From the NCBI RefSeq assembly GCF_055900595.2, contig NZ_CM148325.1: a DNA stretch of 64,000 bases. One strand, 5' to 3'. The position numbers and the translations under genes are program-made. Position 1 is the stretch's first letter. Each line of letters opens with the position of its first letter. The notes below the pieces were generated by a model. The model had not been told where the DNA came from and made no database searches. It saw nothing but the letters and a program-made list of their open reading frames with translations. Shown piece by piece: positions 29,432 to 29,943 of the stretch.

Positions 29432-29943
29432 TTGATGGTAACTCTGACCATTAACCGTAAACCGCAGGGTATTTTCAGTAAATCACCGGCAACGCCGCTG
29501 CAGGATAAAACGGACACAGCATACAAAATGAAGGCCGGTGACCAGATACCACAGTTGAACGATAAACAGAAACCTGCTGATAAAACACCGTGGCGACATG
29601 ACAAAACGCCAGAGCAAAAACCGTAAGCGCATTATTCGTCTTGTGGAACTCTGGCCTGAGTCATTCAACCGGGAAAAAAACAAAACCACTTAAAGTGGGG
29701 ATACCTGACGACCTGATACAGGATATCGCCATCCGAGAACTGGCGTTTGGCGCTGGTACATTACATGCAGCAGTGGCGTCTTATGTGCAGTCTCCGCGCT
29801 ATTACCGTGCGTTAATAGCAGGTGGCGCCCGTTACAACCTGAACGGTCAGCCGTGCGGGGAAGTGACACCACAGGAACAGAAAGAGGCAGAGACCCGTTT
29901 AATGATGCTGAATGACCGACGAAAAGACAGAAAACCTCGTTGA
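29432..29943 (+). pseudogene. FinO/ProQ-domain RNA-chaperone-like gene, frameshifted (one shift in an A7 tract at 29674-29680)
   Basis: Frame 0 ...LVELWPESFNREKNK then frame +1 KPLKVGIPDDLIQDIAIRELAFGAGTLHAAVASYVQSPRYYRALIAGGARYNLNGQPCGEVTPQEQ..., matching the ProQ/FinO core (PLKIGI ... Y..S.RY ... G.PCGE). Confidence 0.6.

What the first reader, a model, noticed from the sequence alone, without database searches (positions are those of the whole stretch)
29432..29943. FinO/ProQ-like RNA chaperone gene interrupted at a poly-A tract
The translation switches frame within gggaaaaaaac (A7 at 29674-29680) exactly between the L.ELWPESF and KPLKVGI blocks of a ProQ/FinO-type domain, and the Lys-rich N-terminal region lies in a third frame. 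A homopolymer frameshift inside an RNA-chaperone gene next to AlpA could be a pseudogene, a sequencing error or a phase-variable switch.
Basis: seen in the sequence. Interest (0 to 1): 0.4.

Follow-up and report, generated by a model that had tools for sequence, protein, structure and literature searches.

The report
Frameshifted island FinO/ProQ-family pseudogene
This is an ordinary decayed gene: an E. coli genomic-island copy of a FinO/ProQ-type RNA-chaperone gene broken by a 2-base deletion and an extra A in an A-run. The same broken allele sits in hundreds of other E. coli genomes and is already annotated there as a frameshifted pseudogene.

Summary
Window 29435-29943 (+) reads a FinO/ProQ-family protein in three frames. 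Frame 2 holds a 55-codon Lys/Gln/Thr-rich N-terminal extension. Frame 0 (29598-29693) holds the first helix of the domain and ends at a TAA. Frame 1 holds the rest of the domain, up to 29943 (Pfam ProQ E=4.9e-17).

Intact relatives in E. coli, Salmonella and Citrobacter are single ORFs of 158-185 aa with the extension fused in frame. The window therefore carries two lesions:
- a 2-nt deletion, CAT[AT]G to CATG, at 29597-29600;
- an A6 to A7 insertion at 29674-29680.

It is not a sequencing error. An exact 96-nt probe with A7 is found in 347 of 5426 complete E. coli genomes, A6 in 2 and A8 in 0. RefSeq annotates the identical locus as "ProQ/FINO family protein, frameshifted".

A6 alleles (a 114-aa domain-only ORF) are rare. 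They occur on the same haplotypes as A7 in both island contexts, so the run has slipped or been converted more than once. That level of instability is ordinary for a homopolymer and does not indicate a phase switch. Homologues have A5CC and one ORF, so recoding is not supported.

Verdict: a known kind of pseudogene, of low interest. The intact island-type FinO subfamily appears to be uncharacterised.

The parts
29435..29599 (+). Coding segment for the 55-residue N-terminal extension of the ancestral long-form protein (frame 2). In the window this frame runs on out of register to a TAA at 29624-29626.
   Evidence: ORF list. The same sequence is fused in frame to the FinO domain in homologues of 158-185 aa. 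It is predicted disordered, with pLDDT<50 for residues 1-51. A GAGG lies about 10 nt upstream of the ATG.
29597..29600 (+). Lesion 1: a 2-nt deletion in the AT dinucleotide repeat (CATATG to CATG). It uncouples the extension from the domain but leaves the internal ATG at 29598.
   Evidence: DNA alignment with the intact long-form locus L007 and with the O157 allele. Every allele of the window lineage, A6 and A7 alike, carries it.
29598..29693 (+). 5' segment of the FinO domain (frame 0): 31 codons encoding helix 1, ending at the premature TAA at 29691-29693.
   Evidence: It aligns to ProQ residues 24-41 of PDB 5nb9 and to helix 58-73 of the model.
29674..29680 (+). Lesion 2: the A7 homopolymer, A6 plus one inserted A, which shifts the reading into frame 1.
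   Evidence: Probe counts are A7 347, A6 2 and A8 0 genomes. The inferred series is A5CC (long form), then A6 by a C-to-A change (Pro to Thr), then A7.
29674..29943 (+). 3' segment of the FinO domain (frame 1), from KKTKPLKVGI to the TGA at 29941-29943.
   Evidence: Pfam PF04352 at E=4.9e-17. PDB sequence hits are ProQ, NMB1681, RocC and FinO.
29961..30509 (-). Convergent neighbour: a 182-aa UCP030791-family protein of unknown function and putative phage origin.
   Evidence: RefSeq annotation of homologous loci. PF27752 is recorded for the homologous product. My Pfam copy gave no hit.
30710..30946 (-). AlpA-family helix-turn-helix regulator of the island backbone.
   Evidence: Pfam Phage_AlpA at E=2e-10.
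31944..32675 (-). YagK/YfjJ (inovirus Gp2-like) protein of the island backbone.
   Evidence: Pfam YagK_YfjJ_C at E=3.6e-37 and REP_ORF2-G2P at E=1.9e-10.
28341..29032 (+). Decayed IS1-family transposase remnant upstream, marking the boundary between the backbone and the cargo side. Coordinates are approximate.
   Evidence: RefSeq annotates it as 'IS1 family transposase; frameshifted; internal stop' in a locus whose ProQ region (window 29300-30000) is 100% identical; the IS1 stretch itself is only about 96% identical to the window, hence the approximate coordinates. InsA/InsB-like ORF fragments are listed.

Best explanation
The locus is a pseudogene of an island-borne FinO/ProQ-domain RNA-binding protein. 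The ancestral gene was a single ORF of about 169 codons. It encoded a disordered Lys/Gln/Thr-rich N-terminal extension of about 55 residues, a FinO domain and a short basic tail. Two successive small indels at simple repeats broke it. First, a 2-nt loss in CATATG (29597-29600) separated the extension from the domain, leaving a 63-codon upstream ORF that overlaps a 114-codon domain-only ORF starting at the conserved internal Met. In the same lineage a C-to-A substitution (Pro to Thr) lengthened an A5 run to A6. Second, replication slippage added one A (A6 to A7, 29674-29680). Translation from the ATG at 29598 therefore stops after 31 codons at 29691-29693, having made only helix 1. The rest of the domain is left in frame 1 without a credible start. 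The allele is stably inherited and widespread in E. coli. The steps shown here are the lesions, their order, the allele counts, the domain identity and the fold. The inferred steps are that no functional protein is made from the A7 allele, and that the intact protein binds terminator-type RNA hairpins to regulate an island transcript, by analogy with FinO, FopA, PcnR and RocC.
For: The three-frame layout and the Pfam hits are. Long-form homologues of 158-185 aa with the extension in frame occur in E. coli, Salmonella and Citrobacter. In a sample of six diverged E. coli alleles, four are annotated as intact long forms and two as pseudogenes. DNA alignments pinpoint the -2 and +1 lesions and the A5CC to A6 to A7 series. 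The exact A7 probe is found in 347 of 5426 complete genomes, A6 in 2 and A8 in 0. RefSeq annotates loci identical to the window over 29300-30000 as 'ProQ/FINO family protein; frameshifted', spanning the equivalent of 29435-29943. In the large protein collection, fragments typical of A7 are common (31-aa on 97 contigs, 100-aa on 63, an 82-aa relative on 178), against 19 contigs for the A6 114-aa protein. There are signs of relaxed constraint. The window lineage differs at 6 of the 67 columns where at least 18 of the 19 other long forms agree, whereas its close intact relatives differ at 0. Domain dN/dS is 0.23-0.31 for pairs that include the window and 0.11 between the other two alleles compared, the intact long form L007 and the O157 allele whose 114-aa domain ORF is intact. 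These rest on small counts. The predicted structure of the repaired protein has a disordered N-terminal region and a FinO-domain fold, with the frameshift in the loop after helix 1. The review PMC9977716 notes that FinO-like genes integrated into chromosomes often erode.
Against: The frame-1 segment is still free of stops. This carries little weight, because A7 alleles are at least 99% identical to each other and have had little time to decay further. A6 and A7 occur on otherwise identical haplotypes in both island contexts, so the tract has changed or been converted more than once. That leaves some room for a switch-like reading. No expression data were available, so low-level rescue by slippage cannot be formally excluded.
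Confidence: 0.85

Rival explanations
1. The A run is a contingency locus. Slipped-strand mispairing toggles A6 (on: the 114-aa FinO-domain protein is made) and A7 (off), giving heritable and reversible control of an island RNA chaperone.
For: A6 and A7 alleles coexist on identical haplotypes. L022 (A6) differs from the window (A7) by 0 substitutions over 2.1 kb. L005 (A6) and L010 (A7) share two private SNPs. All four combinations of the 29504 SNP and tract length are present. Both states occur in both island contexts. A6 is seen in independent NCBI, ENA and Logan assemblies.
Against: The counts are extremely skewed, at 347: 2: 0 for A7: A6: A8, whereas a fast switch should also populate A8. 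From general knowledge, a 6-7 nt A run is short for phase variation in mismatch-repair-proficient E. coli. The pattern can also be explained by gene conversion between the two island copies in one genome: strain 104 has A7 in both copies and GCA_027279515.1 has A6 in both. Some A6 calls in long-read or 454-era assemblies may be homopolymer errors. The 'on' state still lacks the conserved fused N-terminal extension. Homologues have A5CC at this site.
Confidence: 0.07
2. The gene is expressed by recoding. RNA polymerase slippage on the A7 run (loss of one A or gain of two) or a ribosomal +1 frameshift would restore the FinO domain in a fraction of products.
For: The frame-1 segment is open to the natural stop. 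A-runs are known slippage sites (general knowledge).
Against: The site is not conserved: intact homologues read GAA AAA CCN AAA CC in a single ORF. The heptamer A AAA AAC in frame 0 favours a -1 shift, and that frame ends at a TGA at 29714-29716 (read), whereas a +1 shift is what is needed. From general knowledge, efficient transcriptional slippage in E. coli needs runs of about 9 or more. The second, unrelated lesion at 29597-29600 points to general decay.
Confidence: 0.03
3. The extra A is a sequencing or assembly error in the window, and the real gene has A6.
For: Homopolymer length errors are common in some sequencing technologies (general knowledge). A6 alleles do exist.
Against: The exact A7 96-mer is present in 347 complete genomes from many laboratories, hosts and platforms. 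A7-derived ORF fragments are seen on hundreds of contigs, including short-read Logan and ENA assemblies.
Confidence: 0.01
4. The split arrangement is functional as separate small genes: a 63-aa upstream protein, plus an N-terminally truncated FinO fragment started at TTG 29641 or GTG 29694.
For: Some GenBank records name the 100-aa TTG-started product 'ProQ/FinO family protein'. In the O157 allele the upstream ORF ends in an ATGA overlap with the domain start, which resembles translational coupling.
Against: No Shine-Dalgarno-like sequence precedes 29641 or 29694. Such products would lack helix 1 of the domain. The 63-aa product has no family match, and its sequence is the disordered extension of the long form. 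The O157 copy of this segment has dN/dS of 0.74-0.9, though on small counts.
Confidence: 0.03

Closest known systems
FinO of F-like plasmids (PDB 1DVO; NCBIfam NF010317)
   Same: The architecture of the ancestral long form is the same: a disordered Lys-rich N-terminal extension followed by a FinO domain, about 170-186 aa in total. It is also encoded on a mobile element. The sequence hit is E=6.3e-7 and the fold hit has probability 1.0.
   Different: Identity is only about 31-36% over the domain. The NF010317 score is 50.5 bits against a cutoff of 136. The gene is in a chromosomal integrative island, not on a plasmid. No FinP/traJ-like partner was identified. In the window the gene is broken.
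ProQ N-terminal FinO domain (E. coli ProQ, PDB 5NB9; NCBIfam NF003434)
   Same: It is the best sequence match among solved structures (E=1.8e-10, residues 8-102 aligned to 24-118). The conserved PLK(I/V)GI and SxRY motifs are shared.
   Different: There is no linker and no C-terminal Tudor-like domain. The score is 50.8 bits against an equivalog cutoff of 127. It is accessory-genome, multi-copy and often eroded, whereas ProQ is a core gene.
Minimal or stand-alone FinO-domain proteins (Neisseria NMB1681, PDB 3MW6; Legionella RocC, PDB 7RGT/7RGU, and Lpp1663, PDB 6S10)
   Same: The 114-aa domain-only ORF of the A6 and O157 alleles is similar in size to these proteins. They are the top fold matches and strong sequence matches.
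   Different: Those proteins are intact, chromosomal and functionally characterised. Here the domain-only form arises secondarily from lesions in a longer gene, and it is itself frameshifted in the window.
Eroded chromosomal copies of horizontally acquired FinO-like genes (review PMC9977716)
   Same: The scenario is the same: a FinO-family gene brought in by a mobile element and decaying in the chromosome.
   Different: The review's examples are plasmid-derived copies in Salmonella and Rickettsia. I did not find this E. coli island subfamily discussed there.

Membership tests
ProQ/FinO family (Pfam PF04352) | Sequence match to the family profile above the curated cutoff | tested here: met
   The frame-1 fragment scores 62.3 bits (E=4.9e-17) and the one-A-removed 114-aa protein scores 75.8 bits (E=3.1e-21), against a cutoff of 27.
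ProQ/FinO family (Pfam PF04352) | FinO-domain fold | tested here: met
   In the AlphaFold2 model of the repaired long form, 10-residue block means of pLDDT over the domain (residues 51-169) are 63-88. All Foldseek PDB hits with E below 0.01 are NMB1681, FinO, RocC or Lpp1663, each with probability 1.0. The model is of a conceptual repair, not of any product the window can encode.
ProQ/FinO family (Pfam PF04352) | A continuous ORF that can produce the domain | tested here: not met
   The domain is split between frame 0 (stop at 29691-29693) and frame 1. RefSeq flags the identical locus as a frameshifted pseudogene.
ProQ/FinO family (Pfam PF04352) | Binding of structured RNA (terminator hairpin plus 3' tail) | not testable with these tools
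ProQ proper (NCBIfam NF003434 equivalog) | Equivalog-level score and the C-terminal linker plus Tudor-like domain | tested here: not met
   The score is 50.8 bits against a cutoff of 127, and only profile positions 6-114 of 205 are matched.
Plasmid FinO (NCBIfam NF010317) | Subfamily-level score and location in an F-like plasmid tra region | tested here: not met
   The score is 50.5 bits against a cutoff of 136. All 1423 matches in E. coli genomes are chromosomal. Plasmid tblastn hits are below 60% identity (those sampled 26-39%), apart from three records at 80-90%, of which the one listed is a 4.8-Mb record filed as a plasmid.
Phase-variable (contingency) locus driven by a simple-sequence repeat | A repeat inside the coding region whose length changes the frame | tested here: met
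   A6 gives the 114-aa ORF and A7 truncates it.
Phase-variable (contingency) locus driven by a simple-sequence repeat | Frequent tract-length polymorphism among close relatives, in both directions | tested here: inconclusive
   A6 and A7 occur on identical haplotypes. However, the counts are 347 A7, 2 A6 and 0 A8 among complete genomes, and gene conversion or assembly error can explain part of the pattern.
Phase-variable (contingency) locus driven by a simple-sequence repeat | High switching rate within a clonal culture | not testable with these tools
   This needs read pileups or amplicon sequencing.
Programmed recoding site (transcriptional slippage or ribosomal frameshift, as in dnaX, prfB, IS1 insAB') | The slippery site and the two-frame layout are conserved among homologues | tested here: not met
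   Homologues have A5CC and a single ORF. The -1 frame ends at a TGA at 29714-29716.

The most novel reading that the evidence does not exclude
The A6/A7 run is a recurrent, selectable on/off site for an uncharacterised island-specific FinO-domain RNA chaperone. Under this reading, loss of the protein is repeatedly favoured, for example because it interferes with host ProQ/sRNA networks or with control of the island's Gp2-like replication/excision module, and it occasionally reverts. The near-fixation of A7 would then be adaptive silencing rather than neutral decay.
Probability: 0.07. Interest if true: 0.4.

Novelty: already known. Interest (0 to 1): 0.1.

Why it matters
It matters little in itself. 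It is a correctly spotted homopolymer frameshift in a mobile-element gene, and public annotation already flags it as a pseudogene. Three by-products may be useful. First, the true ancestral architecture of this island FinO subfamily is a long form of about 169 aa with a disordered N-terminal extension, so the many 114-aa 'ProQ/FINO family protein' and 57-63-aa 'hypothetical' or 'ProQ' entries in databases are fragments of split genes. Second, the decay path is clear and can be ordered: dinucleotide-repeat loss, then a substitution lengthening an A run, then slippage. Third, intact long-form alleles (for example in strains TUM11352, 98202, NCTC86 and DJH_137urine) are candidates for anyone wanting to study what an island-encoded FinO-like protein does next to the AlpA/Gp2-like module. 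I found no paper addressing that question.

Tried and rejected
- Rfam scan of 26000-34000 at E<=1 found no RNA family, so no candidate partner RNA.
- The promoter/terminator scan gave no promoter-like site. It gave three terminator-like sites against 2.3 expected by chance. One is an antisense hairpin (29698..29686) whose T-run is the complement of the A tract. I rejected it as chance, because the palindrome encodes the conserved KPLKVG motif and is broken in the O157 allele.
- A -1 slip at A AAA AAC runs into a TGA at 29714-29716, so it cannot rescue the gene.
- The internal starts TTG 29641 and GTG 29694 have no ribosome-binding site, and their products would lack helix 1.
- I first read the upstream ORF as an independent small gene, because RefSeq annotates it that way in the O157 and A6 loci. 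I rejected this once the long fused homologues appeared.
- The search for a plasmid or phage source found only distant relatives: below 40% identity to plasmid FinO-family genes and 41.6% to Sodalis phage phiSG1 over part of the domain.
- Literature searches for a characterised island-encoded FinO-like protein found nothing specific.
- A literature search for homopolymer indel rates did not yield an E. coli figure that I read, so the statement about run length rests on general knowledge.

Full report
**What is in the sequence.** The A7 run lies at 29674-29680 (cgggAAAAAAAcaaaacc). Three overlapping + strand ORFs cover 29432-29943.
- Frame 2, 29435..29626: MVTLTINRKPQGIFSKSPATPLQDKTDTAYKMKAGDQIPQLNDKQKPADKTPWRHDKTPEQKP*.
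- Frame 0, 29598..29693: MTKRQSKNRKRIIRLVELWPESFNREKNKTT*.
- Frame 1, open from 29641 to the TGA at 29941-29943: ...GKKTKPLKVGIPDDLIQDIAIRELAFGAG...

The frame-1 product matches Pfam PF04352 (ProQ/FINO) at E=4.9e-17, but only from profile position 23 onward. Deleting one A joins frames 0 and 1 into a 114-aa protein that matches profile positions 5-107 of 109 at E=3.1e-21. That protein also aligns to the ProQ N-terminal domain (5NB9, E=1.8e-10), NMB1681, RocC and FinO.

**The third frame is part of the same ancestral gene.** I first suspected that the frame-2 ORF was a separate small gene. RefSeq annotates it that way in E. coli O157:H7 86-24 (57-aa hypothetical plus 114-aa ProQ/FINO) and in the A6 alleles (63 aa plus 114 aa). 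The homologue search changed that view. Many relatives are single proteins of 158-185 aa in which the same N-terminal sequence is fused in frame to the domain (...KTPWRH-MTKRQRKNRKR...). They occur in E. coli, Salmonella (P0095) and Citrobacter (P0113). An alignment of 20 long forms shows conserved N-terminal motifs (TLTINRKP.GI, QDKT, TPWRHMTKRQRKNR). In a sample of six diverged E. coli alleles, four were annotated as intact long forms (158, 158, 159 and 174 aa) and two as pseudogenes. An AlphaFold2 model of the conceptually repaired 169-aa protein predicts residues 1-51 as disordered (pLDDT<50) and residues 52-169 as a helical/beta domain. The only significant PDB fold matches for that domain are FinO-domain structures. 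The architecture, a disordered Lys-rich extension plus a FinO domain, resembles plasmid FinO.

**The two lesions and their order.** I aligned the window DNA with an intact long-form locus (L007), the O157 allele, the A6 alleles and a Logan contig.
- The window lineage has CGACATGAC where long forms have CGACATATGAC. This is a 2-nt loss in an AT repeat at 29597-29600.
- At the run, long forms read GGG AAAAACC AAAACC (Glu-Lys-Pro-Lys-Pro).
- A6 alleles read GGG AAAAAAC AAAACC. A C-to-A change (Pro to Thr) lengthened the run from A5 to A6.
- The window has A7.

All A6 and A7 alleles share the -2 lesion. The order is therefore -2, then or alongside the A5-to-A6 substitution, then +1. With A7, translation from ATG 29598 stops at 29691-29693 after helix 1 (residues 58-73 of the model), before the conserved PLKVGI motif. 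The O157 lineage was split independently by a 5-nt duplication. Erosion of this gene is therefore recurrent.

**Sequencing error is excluded.** The 701-nt region is at least 99% identical in 334 complete E. coli genomes and 100% identical in several. Probes of 95-97 nt that differ only in run length gave exact matches in 347 genomes for A7, 2 for A6 (APEC IMT5155 and ECCNB12-2) and 0 for A8, out of 434 genomes carrying this allele family among 5426. RefSeq annotates the identical locus as 'ProQ/FINO family protein; frameshifted', spanning the equivalent of 29435-29943. In the larger protein collection, the fragments expected from A7 are on many contigs (31-aa on 97, 100-aa on 63, an 82-aa relative on 178). 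The A6 protein is on 19 contigs, and the shared 63-aa product is on at least 1000.

**Phase variation is not supported.** A6 alleles are real but rare. They occur in both island contexts, LacI/PTS-flanked and YadA/IS1-remnant-flanked like the window, and so do A7 alleles. L022 (A6) differs from the window (A7) by no substitution over 2.1 kb. L005 (A6) and L010 (A7) share two private SNPs. All four combinations of the 29504 SNP and tract state exist. The run has therefore changed more than once, or short gene-conversion tracts have moved it between the paralogous island copies of one genome. Strain 104 has A7 in both copies and GCA_027279515.1 has A6 in both. This is what an ordinary 6-7-nt homopolymer would show over evolutionary time. 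The 347:2:0 skew, the absence of A8 and the persistence of the -2 lesion in the 'on' state all argue against a dedicated switch. Within-culture rates could not be tested.

**Recoding is not supported.** Homologues have no A-run and a single ORF. The frame-0 heptamer A AAA AAC would favour a -1 shift, and that frame ends at a TGA at 29714-29716. Rescue needs a +1 shift.

**Signs of relaxed constraint.** The repaired window protein differs at 6 of the 67 columns where at least 18 of the 19 other long forms agree (S61, S77, T83, H111, N135, N137). Its closest intact relatives differ at 0. Domain dN/dS is 0.23-0.31 for comparisons that involve the window and 0.11 between the other two alleles compared, the intact long form L007 and the O157 allele, whose 114-aa domain ORF is intact. 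The counts are small, so this is only suggestive.

**Context and relation to known families.** The gene sits at the edge of a conserved E. coli integrative-island backbone. That backbone includes a UCP030791-family gene, AlpA, a YagK/YfjJ Gp2-like gene and, further on, GTPase, antirestriction, RadC and CbtA/CbeA genes. A decayed IS1 lies upstream. The protein belongs to the ProQ/FinO superfamily by sequence and fold. It is neither ProQ (50.8 bits against 127) nor plasmid FinO (50.5 bits against 136). It has no close plasmid or phage counterpart. I found no paper characterising this island subfamily. The review PMC9977716 notes that chromosomally integrated FinO-like genes often erode. By analogy with FinO/FinP, FopA and PcnR, the intact protein probably binds a terminator-type hairpin of an island transcript. 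This is inference; no candidate RNA was found.

**Verdict.** The feature is already known from public annotation, and its interest is low.

Noticed in passing
window 29951-29960 and 29982-29991: Two copies of the self-complementary 10-mer ACAGCGCTGT, 31 nt apart. The first lies in the 17-nt gap between the convergent stop codons of the FinO pseudogene and the 182-aa gene. The first copy is altered in the Santai, O157 and L009 alleles. It could be a shared terminator stem or a protein-binding site.
   Followed up: partly
window ~28341-29032 (+): A decayed IS1-family transposase (InsA/InsB-like fragments in several frames). RefSeq annotates it as frameshifted with an internal stop in a locus identical to the window over the neighbouring ProQ region. 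A transketolase fragment and another transposase remnant lie further upstream.
   Followed up: no
L003 3136-3650 (E. coli O157:H7 86-24, dnd island): This allele of the same gene is split by a different lesion, a 5-nt CTGCT duplication. It places the upstream ORF's stop in an ATGA overlap with the FinO-domain start, which looks like translational coupling. It is annotated as two intact genes.
   Followed up: partly
L009 393-899 (Logan contig ERR10499703_2632; protein P0007): An allele of the window lineage with three changes: -2 at CATATG, -1 in the A5 run equivalent to window 29616-29620, and A6. The net change is -3 nt, which re-fuses a 168-aa ORF whose junction reads RHDKTPEQNRKR. It was seen on a single short contig, so it could be a compensatory restoration or an assembly artefact.
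   Followed up: partly
window 29686-29698 (- strand): The palindrome CCACTTTAAGTGG is followed on the minus strand by the T-run that complements the A tract, giving a terminator-like shape. It is not above chance in the scan, lies in the codons for KPLKVG and is broken in the O157 allele.
   Followed up: yes
L010 3332-3876 (E. coli strain 104, second island copy): In this truncated island copy the neighbouring 182-aa UCP030791-family gene is also frameshifted, and the backbone is replaced by pgtA/pgtB. The whole module is decaying there.
   Followed up: no
window 29961-30755 (- strand): The mechanical ORF list gives a 264-aa GTG-started ORF here. RefSeq homologues annotate only the 182-aa product (29961-30509). 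A few assemblies call a 250-aa version that joins it to the AlpA-proximal region.
   Followed up: no
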